DNA of 64,000 nt, taken from positions 53,754,001-53,818,000 of the forward strand of contig OX597824.1 in the NCBI GenBank assembly GCA_951406725.2. Reading direction: 5' to 3'. Of this stretch, positions 5,933 to 39,110 are shown piece after piece. Each line of letters begins with the position of its first letter. Within the stretch, counting starts at the first letter, position 1. The DNA is from Octopus vulgaris. Lineage: Eukaryota. Position numbers and translations under genes: made by a program. The notes under the pieces are model-generated. The model did no database searches. It saw only the letters and a list, made by a program, of their open reading frames with translations, and was not told the origin of the DNA.

Positions 5933-8900
5933 TGTTTTATATCCTGGTGTTGGATATATAATTTAATGAAGCAGGGGGTTAAAAGTATTTGCACAACACA
6001 ATACGATTACTAATACATGAGACTCAATGTTCTCAATCAAAGGCTCACAGCCAACTACTAACCAATGCAATCTGCCAATCGCTCACAGTTCTTTACACAC
6101 TCTGATTTTATAATTCTTTTTCTTAAAGTACACAGCTGGTAATACCCACTAACTATATTCCCCTTTTTGAATAACTCCAATTTCTTCTAGTCTCTCTAAC
6201 TTTAAGTTTATCTGTTCTAATGCTGCGAATGGCACAGTTTGTTTTTGTTTAAATGTTGGTATGACATTTTCTTTTATTTGAAACTTCACCTTTGTTTTGG
6301 TGCACACCTAATTTATCAGACAGAAGCTCAAGAAAAATCTTTAAAAAATTTTTTTTCAATTTGTCTGACAAGTTATTTGTACTGGTGGAAAGACCATTCA
6401 CATTTTTACAGAAAAGATTTATGGAGAGATCCCATAAGTTAAATAATTCCATCCAGTCAGTTCCAAATAAATTTGTTGTATATTATTCAACACAAAAACT
6501 TTGGCTCTGAAGGTTTTTCTCACGAAATGTAATGTCACTTATCGGTTTGCCCTTGAAATATAATTTTTCCTGAAACGCAACAGGCAATTTTTGAAGTTTC
6601 TTTTAATCTAGGACTCCTGATTATTTCCCATGTACCTGTATCAATTATCAAGTTATCACTGCCTGTATCCAATTGTAACTTTACATTTATGTTATTAATT
6701 TTTACATAAACAACTTTCCTGTGGGGCTCATTTGTATTTCTTGCCACCGATAAACCTGTTTACGTGATTTTTTTCTGTCGAACCATTTTTTAGGTTTTGT
6801 TTTAGTGTGATTTTTTATGACCTATTTTACCATACTTGAAGCATTTTATATTTTTAAACATACAGTTACTTTCAAAATGTAGACCACTGTACTTATAACA
6901 TGGATCCAGTCCTAAGTGAGGTGGAGAGGAGGTTCTGCTAGGTTCCTCACAGGCAAAGAACACAGGTACAAGATTTTCTGGGCTAGGAACACTGACGGGG
7001 TCGGGGGCGTGGGTATACTTCTCGCTGAAAAATGGGTAAATACGGTAATTGAGGTAGTCAGAGTATGCAACAGAATACTTAAGATTAGCAACCATTATAT
7101 TGGCCTATGCCCCTCAGCCAGGGCTACACAATGGACAGAAAGACCAATTCTATGAAACCCTACTGCACTCTACCTCGTTGACAAACAACAGGGACCTTCT
7201 CTTTGTGGCTGATGACTTCAATGGGCATGCTGGACAACATGCTGGGGGCTTCCATGGCGTACATGGAAGCTACGGTTATGGTTCCCGCAACGAGGAGGGA
7301 ACCAGGCTGCTGGAGTTCTGCGATGCAAATGATCTTATGGTTTGCAACACTAACTTCAGGAAACCTACCAGCCACCTAGTCACCTACCGATCAGGCCGAC
7401 ATACTAGCCAAATTGACATCCTTGCCAGAAAAAGGGAAAGATGGCTGCTTATAAATGCCAAAATCTTCCCAGGCAAAGAATGTAGCCCACAACATAGACT
7501 GGTAGTTAGTGACATTAGGATCAGGACTAAGAGGACGACCAGAAGATGACCAGCATGGAGAAGAAGGGTCTGGAAGCTTAAAGATCCTGCGAATGGACAG
7601 AGATTTAGAGACATATTACTTGAAGCCTTTGTCGAAATAGATGGGGATATAGCTTCACATGGGGTAGAAGACAACTGGAGGTCTCTAAGGGACAACCTGC
7701 TGAGAGCCACTGACCAGATCTGTGGTTGGTGCAAAGTCCCCTCAAGACCCAAAATAACGTGGTGGTGGAACAATATTGTTGACAGGGCTATTAGACAAAA
7801 GAAACAGGCTTGGAAGGACTAGAAGAACGGTGGTAGCAGGGAAGTGTATCAGACTGCCAGAAGTGAAGCTAGGAGGCAGGTGTATTTAGCCAGAGGGGAA
7901 GAAGATAAGAAAAAATTTGCCAATGTTCTGTGCCGTGAGGATGAAAGACTTGAGGTATTTCGTGTTGCAAGACAGTGTGTGAGAGAGAATCGTGATGTGG
8001 TAGGAGAGAAATGTGTCCGCATGGATGATGGTTCACTTGCGCTAAATGAGGATGCAAAGAGAGTGGTTTGGAGACACCACTATGAAAGGTTGCTGAATAA
8101 AGAAAATGTATGGGATAAAGAGAGTCTACCGAATGTCGACCCAACAGAGGGACCGGCTATCTGAGTTGACAGTTCCTTGGTAGTCAAGGCAATTAAAAGC
8201 ATGAAGACAGGGAAAGCCCCAGGCCTATCAGGAATTACAGCAGAGATGCTCAAAATATCTGGCAGTGTCGGCTATAGCCTAGTCACCCGTATAGTTAACC
8301 AGGTGATACACGAAGGAGTCATACCCAATGACTGGTGTAGCAGCATAATAGTTAACTGCTACAAAGGTAAAGATGACGCCCTAGATATAAATAATTACAG
8401 AGGTATCAAGCTGTTGGATCAGGTAATGAAGGTTACGGAGAGGGTCATAGCCCAACTGATTAGGGAGAGAGTCAACTTGGATGAGATCCAGTTTGGTTTC
8501 GTGCCAGGGAAAAGCACCACTGATGCCATATTTCTGGTAAGACAGTTGCAGGAGAAATACCTAGCCAAAGATAAGTCCCTGTACCTGGCTTTCATTGACA
8601 TGGAGAAAGCCTTTGACAGGGTTCCCCGATCCCTTATCTGGTGGTCAATGAGGAAACTAGGGATAGATGAATGGTTAGTGAGAGCTGTGCAAGCCATGTA
8701 CAGGGACGCTGTAAGTAAGGTAAGGGTTGGCAACGAGTACACTGAAGAATCCAAGGTAGAGGTTGGGGTCCACCAGTTTTCAGTCCTCAGCCTCCTCCTA
8801 TTTATCATAGTCCTCCAGGCAATAATGGAGGAATTCCAGACAGGATGCCCCTGGGAGCTCCTCTATGCTGATGACCTTGCTCTAATTGCTGAGTCGCAAT

Positions 8901-11418
8901 CAGAACTAGAGGAGAAGTTTCAAGTGTGGAAATAAGGATTAGAATCGAAGGGCCTTAGAATCAACCTAGCTAAAACCAAAGTCCTAATAAGTAGTAAGGC
9001 AGGCAAACCACAAATCCCTTCAGGTAGATGGCCCTGCTCGATCTGTAGTAGAGGTGTAGGTAGAAACTCTATAAGATGTACCCAGTGTAAGCTATGGACA
9101 CACAAGAGGTGCAGTAATATCAAAGGAAGGCTAACTAGGAAGATAGTTTTTGTATGTGGCAAATGCTCGGGAGCAATAAACACTGAAAATGCGCAGAGAC
9201 CAACTTCCGCCACATTCCAGGGTGAAAAACTAGAAGTAGTTGATAGCTTCCATTATCTAGGTGACCAAATCAGTAGCAGAGGAGGGTGCACTGAAAGTGT
9301 AGCTGCTAGAATAAGAATAGCTTGGGCAAAGTTCAGAGAGCTCTTACCTCTGCTGGCGACAAAGGGCCTCTCGCTCAAAGTAAAAGGTAGACTGTATGAT
9401 GCATGTGTACGAACAGCCATGCTACACGGCATTGAGACATGGGCTGTGACTGCTGAGGATATGCGTAAGCTCGCAAGGAATGAAGCCAGTATGATCCGAT
9501 GGATGTTTAATGTCAGTGTGCATACTCAACAGAGTGTAAGTACCTTGAGAGAAAAGTTGGTCCTAAGAAGCATTAGATGTGGTGTGCAAGAGAGACGACT
9601 GCGTTGGTATGGTCATGTGGTGAGAATGGATGAGGATAGCTGTGTGAAAAAGTGCCACACCCTAGCCGTTGAGGGAACCTGTGGAAGAGGTAGACCCAGG
9701 AAGACCTGGGATGAAGTGGTGAAGCACAACCTTCGAACATTAGGCCTCACCAAGGAAATGACTAGCGACCGAGACCTTTGGAAATATGCTGTGCTCGAGA
9801 CGACCCGGCAAGCCAGATGAAACCATAACCCATGGCCTATGCCAGGAGCATAACCAGCCTGCTTATGTGCAGCTTTTCCTTCTTTGGTCACTAAACTTTG
9901 CTTGCGAAGACCTGTTGAGGCAAGTGAAATCAAAATCAAAATCAAAATCATTCCAATGACTGGCATCCGTGCTAGCGGGGTGCAAAGAGCACCATACAAG
10001 TGTGATCGTTGACAGAGAGGCTATTCGAGTAAGATCGTTACCAGTGTCGCCTTACTGGCACTTATGCCTGTGCTTAGTAGGGTGCCAATAGACCATCCGA
10101 GCGTGATCACTATGATTGTTGCCAGAACAGCCAACTGGCTTCCGTACCCGTGGCATGTAAAAGGGCACCATTCAAGCGTGGTCATTACCAACGTCACTTC
10201 ACTGGCACCTGTGTTGGTGGCACGTATAAAAAGATTCGAGCGAGGTTATTGCCAGTACTGCCTGACTGGCCCCCATGCAGGTGGCACATAAAAAGCACCC
10301 ACTACACTCTTGGAGTGGTTGGCGTTAGGAAGGGCATCCAGCTGTAGAAACTCTGGCAGATCAAGACTGGAGCCTGGTGCAGCCATCTAGTTGCCAGCCC
10401 TCAGTCAAAACCGTCCAACCCATACTAGCATGGAAAACGGACGTTAAATGATGATGATGATGATGATGATACCAGTTGACGCATGAATATGAGAGCAATC
10501 TTTTTCTTCAATTTTATCTGCATCATGTCATAGATTTATAATCCTCTGACATTCTTCTGTTACTGCCTGTAAAGTTAAATCTAGGTCCTGTTCTAGTTTT
10601 GACAATATCTGGAAACGTATATCTGCATCTTTGCTTGCAGTAAACTCTTGAACAAAAATTAAATACTTGAACATGTCTGGGGTCAACTCATTCAATTTGA
10701 ATTTCTTACGTTCTCTGTTAACCACTCTGGCATGGGTGACATAATCTTCATCATCTTTTTTGACCAAATTTAAACATTGCCAGTGAGTATTGAACAGGGA
10801 ACTTCTTGCACTGAAGATTTTTGATTAAAAATTGTTTCATTGAAACAAATCTCACCTGGTTCCTTCGGCAGAATTTAATTACTATATTTTTCATGTTTGG
10901 CAGGGGATAACTTTCTTAAAAGTAGTTGTACTTTTTCCTCATCAGACCAACTTTTACATTCTTCGCTGAAGATTTCTTTGTATCATCGAAATTATGCAGA
11001 GAAGGTAATCCTTTCTTCTGGATTACAGCTGAATTCTTCAATTGAGTTTGCTATGCTGTCTGGCAAGTATGAACCTGAAGTATTTTCAGACTTCTTCAAC
11101 ATTAATTCCAGCAACTGTTGGTTTTGTTGTTGTTGCCATTGTAGTTATTGTTGCTGCAGTTGCTGTTGTAATTGCACCACAGAGGCAAATAAATCTTCCA
11201 TATTAAAACGATTTTTTTCTTTGGTTTCATACCAAGAAAAAAATTTTAAATGTCCAATGCAAGCTTCGAACAACTTGTCACCACTTTTATATCCTGGTGT
11301 TGGATATATATATTTAATGAAGGTTGAGGAGTGGGGTATTTACACAATGCAATACAATTACTATTACACAAGGCTCAATGCTCTTAATCAACAGCTGACA
11401 GTTCTTTATTTTATAACA
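5933..11418 (-). mobile_element. Internally deleted Gypsy element with two diverged LTRs (~5933-6114, ~11286-11418), interrupted by an RTE LINE
   Basis: Both LTRs share tatcctggtgttggatatata...ctcaatg...ttttataa. PBS-like TGGTGAC at 11278-11284. Gag with polyQ, a degenerate zinc knuckle (KCFKYGKIGHKKSH) and protease QLDTGSD. Confidence 0.8.
6911..10471 (+). mobile_element. Nearly complete RTE-clade LINE (APE endonuclease, RT, PHD-like finger, repeat-containing 3' UTR, (GAT)n tail); inactivated
   Basis: APE motifs (DFNGH, QHRLVV) and RT motifs (YRGIKLL, QFGF, DMEKAFDRV, LLYADD). Several stops and frameshifts. Probable TSD ccagt at 6906-6910 and 10472-10476, and the Gypsy gag sequence resumes across it. 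Confidence 0.95.
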
Positions 11419-18027: not shown

Positions 18028-19157
18028 ATACACAAGAGTAAGATCTAGGGAACCAAAAGCAGGAAGTTTGAAGCTTCAAGCAGTCCATGGCAGATTATTG
18101 GCATTCAAGGTAAAACACTTTTCCCCATATTGAAGATATGAGGAAATTTAATAAGTTGCGTTTCTTTATAGCATTATAGCAACTAGAATTGCTACTAGTG
18201 CAAATAAAAATCCAAACTGAGAGAATGGAATGGGTAAAATTCAGGCTACATATGTTTCTTAACTAGCTGATCCTCTGATGTAATAGTTACTCAATGAGGG
18301 ATGCTCAACTTAGCTAATCATCAGGCTGAGATTATCTTAATGAAATGAAGATTACATTGTCTCTTGGAATTTCCAAGTTAAATCACTACAGATGTGAAGT
18401 GAAATGAATAGTGAAGCTGGAAGTACAGAATAAAAAAATTAATTAAATAAATATAAAAAAAAAAGATCAAGTGCTACGAAAGGAAAGGATGGGGTCAGAT
18501 ATGTGGGAGTTGTATAGAGTTGATAGGAATGAAGTAAAAGAGAGAGGGAGGAAGAAAGAGGAAAGAGATAGGAGTGGAGTGTCGCTGTCTTTAGGGGGAA
18601 AACATAGTAGTTATAAATACTTAACTGAGAAGGGTGAAGTTAAAGACTGGCTGACTGCTTAGTGTTGATCTCCTAGTGGATAACTGGTGGTGCTGGTACT
18701 GCAGACCATTGGTCTACATTGCAGTACACATACATGAAAGATATCATAATAGATAAACAAACGAAGCAACCTTATAATTAACTGTAAACACAAATTACAT
18801 AACACATTCTTACCGTACAACTGCTAGTGTCTCAGCCTGATATCTCCCTTGCTAATCTTCCTACATCTTCTCTACTTTGATTTCCCTTAAGTATTTATAA
18901 TCATAATCTTTTAGTATACCTTTATATATTTCATTTATTTCATTTGTGGTCTCTTCATATTCTCTACTTTCCAACTTTCCCTTACTTGTTTTATATAATC
19001 TCCCATTTTTCTCTACTTTTTTCTTTTCGCTGATGTACATTTACACCTACCTTTAAGTGAGAGAATCGCCTTTTGTAAACTTAGAAACATCAAATTATTA
19101 AAGTGGAAAAATTATCAGAAAAGCCATTTCTATTCATTTTTACAAATATATATAGAG

Positions 19158-19463
19158 ATAAAATAAAAAAGGGTGAAAAAACTACAGAAGGCTTGTATTA
19201 TAAGGTTAAAGAATATATCTAAGTTAGAAAAATGTTAGAAAATGTTTGTGTATAGTAACATAGTTTTTGGAGAAATAACCGGTTTCGTATTTTCTTTTCA
19301 AATTTCTCAAATTTGTTTATCTACATCATGTCAATGATTTCTCCAAAAACTATGTTACTATACACAAAAAATTTTCTAACATTTTTCTAACATAACAACT
19401 TAAATATATTCTGTAACCTTATAACACAAGCCTTCTGTAGTTTTTTCACTCTTTTTTATTTTT
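19158..19463. repeat. Imperfect ~120-bp inverted repeat (foldback) around a hammerhead-like motif
   Basis: Arm 19158-19276 is the reverse complement of arm 19337-19463, with scattered mismatches and one short indel. Confidence 0.9.
19273..19314 (-). ncRNA. Degenerate minimal hammerhead ribozyme motif (U3-A8 variant)
   Basis: Minus strand reads AAAT-TTGAGAA-(ATTT..AAAT AC)-GAAA-CCGG-TT-ATTT. Helix I has 4 bp, helix III is the palindrome ACCGGT, and helix II is damaged. Confidence 0.5.
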
Positions 19464-19517
19464 TATACATCCAACCACATGCTTTCACACACCAACTTTT
19501 TCACCTATATATATATA

Positions 19518-19811
19518 TGGAGGCACAATGGCACAGCAGTTAGGGCAGCGGACTCGTGGTCGTAGGATTGCGGTTTCGATCCCCAGGCAGGGCGTTGTGT
19601 TTATTGAGCGAAAACACCTAAAGTACCACAAGGCTCCAGCAGGGGGTGGTGGCGATCCATGCTGTACTCTTTCACCGCAAATTTCTCTCACTCTTTCTTC
19701 TGTTGGCCTGCTCACTTAGCCAGCAGAGTGGCATCATTTGAAGGCTAAAACAATGCGCTTTGCATTGCGACCAGCGATGTGTAGCAACATCTGATATCCT
19801 GGTCGGTCACA

Positions 19812-19815
<4 letters not shown>
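19518..19815 (+). mobile_element. tRNA-derived SINE (second family)
   Basis: tRNA-like head (tggcacagcagttagggcagcggactcg...ggtttcgatccc) flanked by (TA)n. Confidence 0.7.
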
Positions 19816-19912: not shown

Positions 19913-20509
19913 ATCATCATCATCATTTAGCATCCGCTTTCCATGCGAGCATGGGTTGAACGGTTCAACTGGGGTCTGTGAAGCCGGAAGGCTGCATCAG
20001 GCCCAGTCTGATCTGGCAGTGTTTCTACGGCTGGATGCCCTTCCTAACGCCAACCACTCCGTGAGTGTAGTGGATGCTTTTTATGTGCCACCCGCACAGG
20101 TGCCAGACGGAGCTGGCAAACGGCCACGAACGGATGGTGCTTTTACGTGCCACCGGCACAGGGGCCAGGCAAGGCTGGCAACGGACACGAACGGATGGTG
20201 CTTTTACGTGCCACCGGCACGGGGGCCAGGCGGGGCTGGCAACGGACACGAACGGATGGTGCTTTTACGTGCCACCAGCACGGGGGCAGGCGAGGCTGGC
20301 AATGGACACGAATGGATGGTGCTTTTTACGTGCCACCGGCACGGAGGCCAGACGGGGCGGCGCCGGCAACGGCCACGATCGGATGGTTCGCTTAATCAGA
20401 GCTGCAATTTCCACTGATGTTGATTGACCTCAATTTTGGTTCTGCTTTCTGATATCTGATTTGATTTGGTTTGATTTTGATTTTGACTGTTCTCACTGGT
20501 CTTGCTGGG

Positions 20510-29995: not shown

Positions 29996-30099
29996 TATAT
30001 ATATATACAGTAGACCCCCACTTTATAAATCCATCTTGGGACCCCTATTTTAGATTTATTAAACGAGGTATTTATTAACAGAGGGAACAAAATTCGCAA

Positions 30100-31165
30100 A
30101 TAACAAGCGGTGTCCCACAGGGCACTGTCTTGGGGCCACTGATGTTCATAGTGGCCCTTTCAGACATGCCTTCAGTTGCTACGATGACCACCCTTGCTAG
30201 CTATGCAGATGACACAAAAGTCTCCCACGCAATACAAAACCCTGAAAATATTGCGCATCTGCAACATGAGCTGGACACAATATACAGGTGGGCTGAGGAC
30301 AACAACATGCAGTTTAATGCAGGTAAGTTCCAGGCCCTGCGCTACTGGCACACAAAGGTAAATGACGTGAAGACTGGATACACTGGCCCAGGAAGAATTG
30401 CAATCCCTGAGTCAAAATCAGTGCGTGACCTGGGCATTGACATGAGCAATGATGCATCTTTCCAAATGCATATTGCTAATCTGGTGATAAAATGCAGACG
30501 GCTAGCTGGATGGATTCTCCGAACTTTCAGAACAAGAGAGAAGGAGACACTGATGGTCCTATGGAAAACATTCGTCCTCAGCCGCTTGGACTACTGCTCC
30601 CAACTTTGGTCACCACACAATATAAAACTAACAGCAGAACTCGAAGCAATTCAGGGAAGCTACACAAAGAAAATCGTCTCAATGCAAAATATCAGCTACT
30701 GGGAAAGACTGAAGGTATTAAACCTCTTCTCCCTAGAGCGGAGGCGGGAGAGATATGCGGTGATATACATCTGGAAAATCCTGGAGGGTCTTGTCCCAAA
30801 CTTTGGCATTAAAAGTTACTCCAACCGCAGAACGGGGCGCCACTGCATGGTGCCAAGGATTCCAACATCACCATCAAAATACAGGTCCAGATACTGCAAC
30901 AGCTTGGGTTTCAGAGGACCACAGCTATTTAACATCCTCCCTAAATGCCTGAGAGAGTTACATGGTGTGGATGTGGGTTTCTTTAAAACTAAACTGAATC
31001 TCTTCTTGTTGGGAGTCCCAGATGAGCCTACCTCACGACAGGAGACATGGATGCGGGCAGCAGCATCGAACTCCCTTGTTGATCAAGTGCCACGTATCAC
31101 AAATTAGTGTAGCTCATTCAGCGGTGGTGCCCCAGCATGGCTGCGGCCTTCGGGCTAAAACATTT
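30100..31165 (+). mobile_element. 5'-truncated CR1-group LINE with an open RT C-terminal ORF (30130-31107)
   Basis: GVPQGTVLGPLMF, YADDTK, RDLG, LDYCSQLWSP and LFSLERRR motifs, a short 3' stem-loop and a repeat tail. Confidence 0.9.
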
Positions 31166-33296
31166 TTAATGATTTAATGATATTGATTAAACATGTGTAT
31201 TTATTAATATACAAACATGTGAATGCACAAATAAAAACATTATAAAAAATGTCATTGAATGAAAAATTTGTTGAGTGTTGTTTGCCTTACTGGATGCTTT
31301 GTTTGCAACTCTGCATTGATTTTTTTCCTTAAGAGTTCTAAAAAGAGCCATGTCACTGAAATCAAAACTTTCAAGGCCACTTTCTAATCAAGTTAGATAG
31401 CATCTCATTTCAAATGGTGTTGGAGGCTCCGGGACTCTTTCATCAACATTGGAATTGCCATCTTCTCCTCTGGTTTCCTTCTCAGATTGCCGAATGTCAT
31501 GAATGATCTCGTCTAGTTTTCTTCTTCAGTGATGATCCCTGGAGCAACAACAGCCCCATCATCTACAGACAGCTAGTTCTCGAATTGCTTTTTGGTCAAT
31601 CCAGTAGGCAGTAAAGGCAGGATCAAATCTTTGTTAATATCTATGGTTTCATTTGATTCTTTAGCAGAAACAAAACCAGCTTTGATTTAACAATGTTTGA
31701 TTGTCTGGCTAGAGACCTCCTTCCAAGTTACACTTAACATGTACATGGCAACCAAAATGGTGATCCGCTTTGCAAAAATGTCACGTTCAGTGTCTTCCAA
31801 AACATCAATGATCTTCTTGTGCATTTCATGTCTGAAGTAGGCCTCAAGGGCTTGATTATCCCCATGTCACAGGCCAGCAGCACTGACCTTGTGTTGGGAA
31901 GAAGAAATTTTAAAGTGATATTCTTGAGATCATCAATGACTACATGAGAAGAGCAACTGTCAAGTAGGACCACCAGTTGTCTTCCAGATTCCTGCAAACG
32001 ATGATCCCAAGATCTGAGCCAACTTCCATAGATTTTGTCATCTAAGCATTGGTTGAAAAGTCATACTGAATTGGAAGTGTTTTGACATTTTTGAAGTATC
32101 TTGGTGAACCAGCCTTTCCGATTAAGAGCAAGTCTTCTTTGTCTCCATTCATGTTGCAGGCCACCATCAAGGTCACATGGTCCTTTGCTGTCTTAACTCC
32201 TCACAGTTTTCTTGCATCTCTCGTAGACATACGTATTTCCTGGTAATGCACGAAAGTAAATCCCAGTTTCATTAGCATTGTAGATGTCCTGTGGCCTATA
32301 CAATTTCAACAGAAGCTGCATGATCATCTCATGAAATTGATGGGCTCCATTGACATCAGCTTCAGCCGCATCACCTGCAAAGTATGGGATGTTTAATTTG
32401 TGTTCTCTAAAGAGAAAAATGTGAACTAGTGAACTACAATGCTTACCTTTTAGAACCATAAGAAAGATTCTATGTCTTTTTTGCCAACAGCAAAACCAAC
32501 TTTCAGATACCTTAAAATCATGTCTACCAATTGGAGCAATGGTGTTGGCTTTGTGCATTAGGATCGGGCCATTGACAGGGACATTTCTCAAGTGAATAAA
32601 TTGAAACCAATCGTAGAGAGCACAGTCTGTCTGTTGGTCTTTTCCTTCTCGCTGGCACTTTCTCTTTGATGAACAGCCATCATGTTCTTTGGCACGAAGG
32701 TCATCCTCATTCTTTAGCAAATTCTGGAGCAGACCTCTTGAAATTCCTAAACTCTGTGCTGCTTCCCACTGAGTTGTTTTTCCAAGAGCTTTGTAACATT
32801 CTAACAATTGAATCTTTTCTGCCACAGATTTGTCTTGCCTCTCTCTTTTCATTTTGAACAACTTGTGTGTATGTCTGCCTCTCTGCACAAATGATGAATG
32901 ACATGTCTCTTTGGCCCTTAAATACTGACAGGTAGGCTCCATCAGCCACAACCAGCCAGCTGTCACGTGTCCACACCATTATGCAATGAATGAGAAGGAC
33001 ACACAATTTTGACAAGGTGTCTTGGAGCCTTTTTTTTTTGCTTGAATGACAGGGTTGTGTGGTAGACTTCAGCAGCCACTGTCAACTACTACATATTTAT
33101 TGATCTATTTTTGGATGATGGAATGTACTGCATGACAGCTGGCTGGCTGTGGCTGCTGGAGCCTACCTGTCAGTATTTAAGAGTGAAAAAAAGCACTTCA
33201 TTCATTCACTGCAACATGTTGAAACTTTAAGAAGGAGCAGTGACAATTAGATTTATTAAACTAGCGATTTTATGTGTAAAAATGTGTAAAAATTCC

Positions 33297-37444: not shown

Positions 37445-39110
37445 CATCATCATCATCATCATGGCATGGGTCGAATGGTTTGACAGGAGCTGGCCAGGCA
37501 GGAGCCTGCACCAGACTGCTGCATCTGTTTTGGCACAGTTTTTACAGCTGGGTGCCCTTCCTAATATTAACCACCCAGCAGATGAACAGAGTGCTTTTTA
37601 CATGGCATAAACACAGGCAAGGTCAGTTTTGGTATGGTTTTTACAGCTGGATGCCCTTCCAAATGTCAACCACTTTACAGTGTGAACTGGATGCCTTTTG
37701 TGGGTCACCAACACTGGCAGTTTCACCAAGTAACTTGCAAGACAAAGATCCTTTGAGGGGAGAGGGGGAACTAGAAGAGGTGATCTTGTGTCAAAAGGTT
37801 TGAGTGTGACAGAGAGACATGGACAAGTGTCTTGTTGTAGATGAGGTACATGGTACCCAGTCTGAGAGAGAGAGAGAGTGATCAAGAATGAGATCAGAAA
37901 CAGGTGTGCTGCTGTAAAGGGGATACATGGCTATCCAACCTGAGGGAAGAGTTAGAGAAAGAAAGAAAGAGAGAGGGGAGGGAGAGAGATAGAGACAGCA
38001 AGAGTGCAAGACAGAGCAGGAGAGAGATGGTAGTGAAGTGCCGGGGCATACTCATAAGGAACAGGGATAGTAGAGAGAGATAGGTGGTGGCAAGTGCTAG
38101 AGCATACCCTCAAGCTATGGAAGTCATAGTATAAGTGGGAGTGTGTTACTAAGGAAGCATAAGGGCCAAGAGTAGTGCAGTGACTAGAGAAAACCTGGGT
38201 ATATAGAGGAGGTGGGGACTACAGGATAGCAATGATACAGTGAGAAGGGCCATGAGGATAGGATTGGGGAGTGAGAGATAAGCATAATGCATGAAGAGGA
38301 AATGTGAGAAAGAGAAGAGATGTAGTTTGGTTTGTTGGGATGGGGTGTATGGAAAGTTTCATTGTTACATGTGGATAGAACACAGCACTTCTAGAACTGT
38401 TTTGCTGACATAGGCAGTTCTTCTGAAAAACATCATATCGCCAGACATCTCGATCCATTGTCATTTCTTCCATGAGGCTCAACGACCTGAGACCAGTCCT
38501 AACCACATCATCCCATGTCTTCCTGGATCTCCCTCTTCCACAGGTACCATTCACTTTCAGTTATCAACACTTTATACAGCTGTCTTCATCAGTGTGTATG
38601 TACATACACACTGATGTTACACATCTAACAGAGCATACTGCCTTCATTTCCCTCTAATCTACACATGTCTTATGCATTCAGGCCCATGTCTCACTACCAT
38701 GGGGTATAGCCATCCGCACACAAGCATTATGCAATCTACCTTTCAGTCTAAGAGAGAGTTCTTTTGTTGCCAACAGAGGTAATAGTTCTCTGAACTTCCT
38801 CCATCCTATTCTTATTCTAGAAACAATACTTCCAGAGCTAATTTGGTCACCTAGGTAACAGAAACTATCTACAACCTCAAGAGAGCCTCCTGGGCATTTG
38901 AGACAGTCTAAGTCCTGTATGCCCTTGGTGTTCATTGGTCCTGCACATCTGCCACATACAAAGATGACTTCATCTGTCAATCTACCTGAGATTCCACTGC
39001 ACCTCTTATGTGTCCATAGCTTACACTGGGTGCAACGAATTACTTCCAACTCCTTTCCTACATATTGAGCAGGACCATTTACCTGACAGAAAGAGAGTCT
39101 TATCTGCTTT
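37445..39110 (-). mobile_element. Degenerate RTE LINE 3' portion
   Basis: CTQCKLWTHKRC...VDSFCYLG...HGSETW and GRGRSRKTW motifs, with a (CAT)n end. Confidence 0.9.

What the first reader, a model, noticed from the sequence alone, without database searches (positions are those of the whole stretch)
19158..19463. Foldback whose arm begins exactly at a predicted hammerhead cleavage site
Seen: a ~120-bp inverted repeat whose loop carries, on the minus strand, a U3-A8 hammerhead-like core (TTGAGAA...GAAACCGGTT). The predicted cut after GUU falls between 19277 and 19276, and complementarity between the arms stops precisely at 19276/19337. Established: Penelope-like elements and retrozymes carry minimal hammerheads and often integrate with an inverted partial repeat. 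Inference: this is a fossil of a short non-coding ribozyme-processed retro-RNA whose self-cleaved 5' end was copied in head-to-head orientation, possibly an undescribed cephalopod retrozyme/mini-Penelope family.
Basis: partly seen in the sequence, partly recalled or inferred. Interest (0 to 1): 0.72.

Follow-up and report, generated by a model that had tools for sequence, protein, structure and literature searches.

The report
Penelope stub starting at ribozyme cut
This hairpin is two back-to-back end pieces of a common Penelope-type jumping gene, and although most sampled copies start elsewhere, about five times more than expected start where the element's hammerhead ribozyme is predicted to cut, which likely records occasional self-cutting of its RNA in the germ line.

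Summary
The foldback is real, but it is not a non-coding retrozyme or a MITE. It is a head-to-head pair of 5'-truncated ends (pLTRs) of a protein-coding, high-copy Penelope-like retroelement (RT + Cys linker + GIY-YIG; Neptune-like), inserted in (TA)n, with a 38-bp tail on one arm only. Most junctions are scattered: of 183 arms sampled without regard to their 5' end, 11 start within 2 nt of the cut (2.2 expected, p 2e-5; the top of 75 bins), about 2x the neighbouring positions in a second, partly overlapping sample. Three loci carry head-to-tail units that restart at the cut. This likely records occasional cleavage in vivo; a transcription start or an RT pause at that base is not excluded. Cleavage does not build the foldbacks. 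The scan has noted similar peaks on other DNA, including this genome.

The parts
19146..19159 (.). left (TA)n-type target, slightly decayed; tail-less 3' end of the left arm
   Evidence: sequence; same arrangement in sibling copies
19160..19336 (-). left arm: 5'-truncated pLTR of the Penelope-like element, from about -57/-60 to about +123..+134 relative to the predicted cut, no tail
   Evidence: L001 minus, -57..+123; alignment with ORF-bearing copies
19270..19308 (-). minimal type I hammerhead, U3-A8 variant: helix I 19308-19302 / 19276-19270, core 19301-19295, G10.1-C11.1 19294/19287, GAAA 19286-19283, palindromic ACCGGT helix III 19283-19278, H17 = U 19277; predicted cut 19277/19276
   Evidence: activity not tested
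19337..19467 (+). right arm: second pLTR piece whose 5' end is the first base after the predicted cut (offset 0)
   Evidence: L001 plus, 0..+178
19468..19505 (+). 38-bp 'tail', present on this arm only; in full-length copies it continues into the element's ORF start
   Evidence: 81 of 85 head-to-head pairs have exactly one tailed arm
19506..19518 (.). right (TA)n target
   Evidence: sequence; same in sibling copies

Best explanation
The foldback is a head-to-head pair of 5'-truncated end pieces of a protein-coding Penelope-like retroelement in a (TA)n run, and its right arm likely copies an RNA that the element's own hammerhead had cut. Shown: family, anatomy, ribozyme motif, one-tail asymmetry, and the excess of 5' ends at the predicted cut. 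Inferred from PMC11167929: the RT-endonuclease nicks AT-rich DNA on both strands and starts two cDNAs at two internal RNA sites (about +134 and +176), which gives one arm without and one with the tail. Inferred: each cDNA usually stops at a scattered point and the two 5' ends are joined. In a minority of events (about 6% of sampled arms) the template ends at the cut, so the RT runs off there; sometimes the cut end is joined to another RNA end (template jump or ligation), giving head-to-tail units that restart at the cut. Confidence in the family assignment alone is about 0.95; in cleavage as the cause of the peak about 0.6; that this one arm came from a cut RNA about 0.5.
For: Family: dispersed copies with variable inner junctions; upstream sequence is the 3' end of a 655-736 aa frame with RVT_1 (E 1.2e-7), a CxxxxCxxC linker and a GIY-YIG-like end; 694 homologues at E<=1e-20 among 7,995 scored, many with PF00078 and PF01541; the tail continues into an ORF start in 6 of 16 long copies printed. 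Ribozyme: core and helix III invariant in the 19 recurrent variants aligned (these were picked by a core-matching pattern from 179 distinct copies); two pairs change on both sides (helix I G-C/A-U/G-U; helix II C-G/U-A), 92% of cells paired versus 36-56% for slid controls; H17 is C 78, U 61, A 39, other 1 of 179 (the pattern allowed G). Peak: 11 of 183 arms start at +2..-2 versus 2.2 expected (p 2e-5; 2e-4 with the worst simulated pile-up of 1.31), top of 75 five-nt bins, next bins 5-6. Pattern-captured arms: 30 in 5 positions at the cut, 31 in 11 downstream, 9 in 5 upstream (p 3e-4 flat, 0.027 worst case). Genome-wide, 31 of 705 arms (22 loci) lose homology at offset 0/-1. Head-to-tail units restarting at 0/+1 with the same junction in both arms: L137, L145, L279. 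No general ATT/AAT preference at other 5' ends (17 of 124 versus 18% background) and other ATTT sites hold 0-4 starts versus 11.
Against: The peak is modest: about 92% of arms that reach the cut pass the window, and against the nearest downstream positions the excess is only about 2x. Truncation is uneven elsewhere too (0.96%/nt at -58..-77, 0.6%/nt at +3..+35), so a Poisson null overstates significance. The two samples share some arms, the second tally was corrected by eye, and 2 of the 3 head-to-tail loci were selected by a cut-site pattern. Three of the 22 loci are inversions explained by helix I microhomology. In the window's own 22-mer class (189 copies) only this copy has a foreign C/G base at -1. 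This copy's subfamily has the weakest-looking ribozyme (GUU, no second helix II pair). Covariation reflects few events among related subfamilies (pairs changed on both sides: 256 of 500 shuffles reach 2). For an anole PLE, hammerhead mutants did not affect insertion in vitro and no RNA-seq reads began or ended at the cut (PMC11167929).
Confidence: 0.6

Rival explanations
1. Same Penelope-like insertion, but the peak marks a transcription start at offset 0; RT runs off a capped 5' end.
For: The C17 subfamilies read TCATTT across the site, which fits the initiator consensus TCAKTY (consensus recalled, not from a call); PLE pLTRs hold internal promoters (PMC2377424, passages); run-off and template jumps need no cleavage.
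Against: In D. virilis Penelope the start lies 46 bp upstream of a 75-bp intron whose end maps to the 5' end of helix I (PMC2377424, PMC4209133), i.e. upstream of the ribozyme. A second, broad hump of 5' ends at -58..-77 (18 arms) would fit such a start here. No excess of a cap-type G before offset 0 (2 of 19 loci; selected sample).
Confidence: 0.13
2. Same insertion, but RT pauses or switches template at helix I or at the intermolecular ACCGGT duplex of uncut RNA, or AT-rich microhomology piles junctions up here.
For: 5' ends are also raised at +3..+17 (0.63%/nt), the 3' strand of helix I; co-folding gives a stable dimer through helix III; simulated 3-nt microhomology gives a pile-up of 1.3-1.5 around the site.
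Against: The maximum is at 0/+1 (8 of 11 arms) with a drop just upstream (0.22%/nt at -3..-17); simulated pile-up is far below the 5x seen; three head-to-tail loci restart at the same base.
Confidence: 0.15
3. Ordinary Penelope-like stub; the coincidence with the cut is chance in an uneven truncation landscape.
For: Counts are small (11 arms); other bins reach 1.1-1.25%/nt versus 1.72; worst-case p 0.027 in the second sample.
Against: The site was named in advance and is the top of 75 bins; two samples and the genome-wide count (31 of 705 arms) agree.
Confidence: 0.1
4. A non-coding retrozyme or a DNA MITE.
For: No ORF of this family at the locus (one search finds only a distant PLE 26 kb away); terminal inverted repeats in TA.
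Against: Inner junctions differ in every copy, ends are asymmetric, siblings run into the RT ORF, and no tandem hammerhead-bearing monomers were seen in the loci mapped.
Confidence: 0.02

Closest known systems
Endonuclease-bearing Penelope-like elements, Neptune/Nematis type (PMC8557442, PMC3846280; passages read)
   Same: RT followed by CX2-5CxxC linker and C-terminal GIY-YIG; pLTR with hammerhead; inverted 5'-truncated copy head-to-head; 30-40 bp tail on one end; (TA)n targets.
   Different: No RT tree with named clades was built, so Neptune versus Nematis is open. The ORF start (MPQK..., 280 aa in L431) is separated from the RT frame by a stop and a low-complexity stretch in the copies seen: one broken ORF or two ORFs is unresolved. 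A peak of 5' ends at the cut is not described in the passages read.
Minimal type I hammerheads of metazoan PLEs, U3-A8 variant of Schistosoma Cercyon (PMC4209133; parts 1-2 of 4 read)
   Same: U3-A8 core, G10.1-C11.1 pair, palindromic helix III suited to dimers, location in the pLTR.
   Different: Helix II is 1-2 bp rather than 7-8 bp, there is no extra base between A9 and G10.1, and helix I is 7 bp or more. Very small variants may be covered by Lunse et al. (title seen in a reference list only; text not held).
PAc (Poseidon) of Anolis, in vitro (PMC11167929; parts 1-2 of 4 read)
   Same: Two RT start sites bounding the tail; AT-rich target; both strands extended; fits 81 of 85 pairs with one tailed arm.
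   Different: There the tail lies inside the ORF and no cut ends were found in RNA-seq; here the ATG follows the tail by about 27 nt and genomic copies show an excess of starts at the cut.
Non-LTR retrozymes (bioRxiv 10.64898/2026.07.22.740005; passages read)
   Same: Derived from PLE terminal repeats with type I hammerheads.
   Different: Defined as tandem repeats with a hammerhead in every unit; this is a head-to-head pair with one hammerhead, and the three head-to-tail loci found lack the ribozyme's 5' half.

Membership tests
EN+ Penelope-like element | PLE-type reverse transcriptase in the parent element | tested here: met
   RVT_1 E 1.2e-7 (above cut-off) in L082, 4.8e-6 (below) in L080; DKG and FLDD motifs; 694 homologues. 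Shown in sibling copies, not at this locus.
EN+ Penelope-like element | C-terminal GIY-YIG endonuclease with CCHH motif | tested here: met
   LIYVI-C-C-YVG...H...H at the ORF end; Pfam GIY-YIG only below cut-off, E 0.006-0.05; PF01541 on many homologues
EN+ Penelope-like element | pLTR: 3' end and 5' start of the element joined in circular permutation | tested here: met
   ORF end -> hammerhead -> tail; tail -> ORF start; both in L098
EN+ Penelope-like element | inverted 5'-truncated copy and optional 30-40 bp tail at one end | tested here: met
   38-bp tail; 81 of 85 pairs have one tailed arm
EN+ Penelope-like element | single ORF | tested here: inconclusive
   811-819 aa stop-to-stop frames are common; the upstream MPQK frame ends after 280 aa in L431
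Neptune clade | CX2-5CxxC linker between RT and EN; microsatellite targets | tested here: met
   CGRPNCATC; (TA)n flanks; the linker is shared with Nematis (PMC8557442)
Neptune clade | RT phylogeny grouping with named Neptune elements | not tested
   no named reference sequences were available from the tools
minimal type I hammerhead | core UUGANAA...GAAA...UH, G10.1-C11.1, helix I, palindromic helix III | tested here: met
minimal type I hammerhead | long helix II (7-8 bp) and extra base between 9 and 10.1, as in PMC4209133 | tested here: not met
   1-2 bp helix II, no extra base
minimal type I hammerhead | self-cleavage at H17 (dimer or protein-assisted) | not testable with these tools
   only contigs were available; genomic excess of 5' ends is indirect
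non-LTR retrozyme | non-coding tandem monomers, each with a hammerhead | tested here: not met
   head-to-head pair, coding parent; chains in L137, L145, L279 lack the ribozyme's 5' half
MITE | fixed length and interior, symmetric TIR ends, fixed TSD | tested here: not met
   variable junctions, asymmetric ends

The most novel reading that the evidence does not exclude
The genome holds a fossil record that the tiny U3-A8 hammerhead of this Penelope-like element cuts its RNA in the germ line: cut RNAs are copied as arms that start at the cut, and cut 5' ends are joined to other RNA ends to give small circles or jump templates that are copied into head-to-tail chains, a plausible first step towards retrozymes.
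Probability: 0.45. Interest if true: 0.65.

Novelty: new member of a known kind. Interest (0 to 1): 0.45.

Why it matters
Whether Penelope hammerheads cut in vivo is open: PMC4209133 states there is no in vivo evidence and finds low activity in vitro; PMC8557442 calls their function unclear; PMC11167929 found cleavage only with protein, no need for it in insertion, and no RNA-seq ends at the cut. A pre-specified excess of genomic 5' ends at the cut, plus chains that restart there, gives a cheap genome-only readout and a defined base to test by 5'-OH / cyclic-phosphate sequencing. It also indicates that cleavage is a side path (about 6% of sampled arms), not what makes the inverted structure. 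The locus itself is an ordinary stub.

Tried and rejected
Rfam scan: no hammerhead among 150 of 152 matches shown. First cut-site pattern gave 0 hits because this copy has T at -2; redesigned. PDB sequence search with the ORF: 0 hits. Sequencing runs: no RNA holder listed; only contigs of runs guessed to be RNA; laying 4 of them gave no joints or ends, which says nothing on starts, splicing or expression. First breakpoint run had a false pile at -31 from a missing subfamily reference; redone. One duplicate arm (L176) dropped. In one search, 11 of 60 A rows and 6 of 32 B rows were dropped (intact or internally deleted copies, duplicates, and the window's own copy), 5 B rows at -8..-20 lay outside the compared range, and several rows were re-read by eye; my first tally (33/10; note 3) was corrected to 31/9. 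Endonuclease ATT preference as the cause: not supported. A-type versus B-type share at the cut, 7 of 54 versus 4 of 79, is not significant (p 0.12). Tail status of cut-start arms: only 5 scorable. Lunse et al. could not be read. Paper searches listed no paper whose title or abstract start reports 5' ends of PLE copies at the cut or a cephalopod PLE hammerhead; subscription papers and Repbase are not covered, and supplements of PMC4209133, PMC8557442 and the octopus repeat library of PMC13282606 were not opened and may already hold this family.

Full report
Observation. The arms 19160-19276 and 19337-19462 pair with 5 mismatches and 2 gaps, and pairing stops at 19276/19337. The minus strand reads GAGAAAT TTGAAAA GAAAATAC GAAA CCGG TT | ATTTCTC. 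My descriptor finds this one motif in the window and none in 30 shuffles. Rfam shows no hammerhead.

What it is. A DNA search of the own genome (2.8 Gb, 227 contigs) gave 1,425 candidates, 40 scored. In 21 aligned loci the outer ends are fixed and the inner junction differs each time; one end carries 38 extra bases and both lie in (TA)n. Longer copies run upstream into an ORF end. A protein search with it gave 13,417 candidates; 20 fetched copies include frames of 655-736 aa with DKG and FLDD motifs, a CGRPNCATC linker and a GIY-YIG-like end; Pfam finds RVT_1 at 1.2e-7 and GIY-YIG below cut-off; homologues are RT/GIY-YIG proteins, those with names coming from bivalves or bivalve-associated assemblies. 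Frames of 811-819 aa are common, so the family has young members. The tail continues into an ORF start in 6 of 16 long copies printed, and L098 holds hammerhead, tail and ORF start in one piece. The element is thus circularly permuted, as PLE pLTRs are. Of 85 head-to-head pairs among the fetched loci, 81 have exactly one tailed arm. This is the structure described for endonuclease-bearing PLEs (PMC8557442 and PMC3846280, passages).

The ribozyme. 179 distinct copies matched a core pattern. Among 19 recurrent variants, core and helix III are invariant, while flanks differ between subfamilies (about 70-85% identity to this copy). Helix I's outer pair is G-C, A-U or G-U, and the second helix II pair is C-G or U-A, or unpaired as in this copy. 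These are few independent events. Monomer folding does not give helix III; co-folding of two copies gives the intermolecular duplex, as proposed for minimal PLE hammerheads, where U3-A8 is already known from Schistosoma (PMC4209133, parts 1-2).

Do 5' ends peak at the cut? (a) A 19-mer just 3' of the cut has 705 exact copies; 40 lack U16.1. All 40 were read: 7 point mutants, 1 deletion, 1 local duplication and 31 arms (22 loci) with foreign sequence upstream, including hairpins centred on the cut (L133, L149); 3 loci are helix I microhomology inversions. (b) Arms anchored at +90, blind to the 5' end: the first 83 listed of 1,011 A-type and first 100 listed of 206 B-type matches gave 82 + 101 rows after one duplicate was dropped. 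11 start at +2..-2 (1.72%/nt) against 0.34%/nt elsewhere (2.2 expected, p 2e-5). It is the top of 75 bins; the next are 1.25 and 1.11 in a broad hump at -58..-77. Simulated chance or microhomology extension inflates the window by 1.06-1.31. (c) All arms caught by two patterns spanning the site (61 and 32 matches): 30 in the 5 cut positions, 31 in 11 downstream, 9 in 5 upstream (p 3e-4; 0.027 worst case). Samples b and c overlap in part and c was corrected by eye. Other ATTT sites hold 0-4 starts and there is no general ATT bias. So the peak is likely real but small: 11 of 133 arms that reach the site.

Head-to-tail units. L137 holds units of about 459 nt (0 to +450 plus 9 unaligned bases), L145 of 233 nt, L279 of about 470 nt; each runs from the cut through the tail into the ORF start and restarts at 0/+1, with the same junction in both orientations. 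Two were selected by a cut-site pattern; L279 came from the blind sample. In L165 and L169/170 both arms start at 0 and share 377 and 237 nt of foreign flank. A junction shared by both arms points to the template (circle, repeated jump, or a transcribed donor locus); these cannot be told apart here.

Mechanism. In vitro, an anole PLE nicks and extends both strands and starts RT at two internal sites that bound the tail (PMC11167929, parts 1-2). Applied here (inference): two cDNAs start at about +134 and +176, stop at scattered points and are joined head-to-head. The left arm stopped near -57/-60, inside the upstream hump that may be the transcription start (in D. virilis the start lies upstream of the ribozyme: PMC2377424 passages; PMC4209133). 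The right arm stopped at 0, likely the end of a cut RNA. Rivals are a start site at 0 (G before the cut in only 2 of 19 loci), an RT pause at the helices, and chance. No raw RNA reads were available.

Novelty. The locus is a new member of a known kind. PLEs are already annotated in an octopus genome (PMC13282606, passages), and animal retrozymes are proposed to derive from PLE ends (bioRxiv 10.64898/2026.07.22.740005, passages). The searches listed under Tried and rejected showed no paper on genomic 5' ends at the cut. Earlier notes of this scan report similar peaks and chains on other DNA, one in this genome; these are unchecked notes, not support. A look-up by sequence found none for this stretch.

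Verdict. Observation partly confirmed, interpretation partly supported. Interest 0.45: an ordinary stub that carries indirect, testable evidence on an open question.

Noticed in passing
family-wide, offsets -58..-77 from the cut (window about 19334 and beyond, minus strand): Second, broad hump of 5' ends (18 arms, 0.96%/nt, mostly B-type) upstream of helix I; may be the transcription start. The window's left arm starts at its edge.
   Followed up: partly
family-wide, about +22 to +103 from the cut (window about 19359-19440, plus strand): Possible 5'-UTR intron: GTAAG/GTATG donor-like site in the A/C subfamilies, absent in the window's subfamily, with a pyrimidine tract and TAG near +103. No joint seen in contigs, which is not evidence either way.
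   Followed up: partly
L431 2284-3126 (minus); L098 from 2027: The frame that starts after the tail (MPQK..., 280 aa in L431) is followed by a long A/C-rich stretch before the RT frame; one long broken ORF or two ORFs is unresolved.
   Followed up: partly
L165; L169/L170: Both arms start at the cut and share 237-377 nt of foreign flank in inverted orientation: captured sequence joined to the cut site.
   Followed up: partly
window 45024-45792: Fragment of a different Penelope-like family (42-60% protein identity to this family's RT).
   Followed up: no
window 19519-19813 and 19998-20362: SINE-like repeats next to the foldback, one with four 61-bp tandem units; the SINE label is from recall.
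   Followed up: no
window 7058-9820, 30079-31107, 32193-32978, 38678-39199, 42588-43223: Broken LINE-like RT frames and a CENP-B/Tigger-like transposase frame (labels from recall).
   Followed up: no
window 47700-52100: About 4.4 kb of (TA)n / TACA-rich simple repeat.
   Followed up: no
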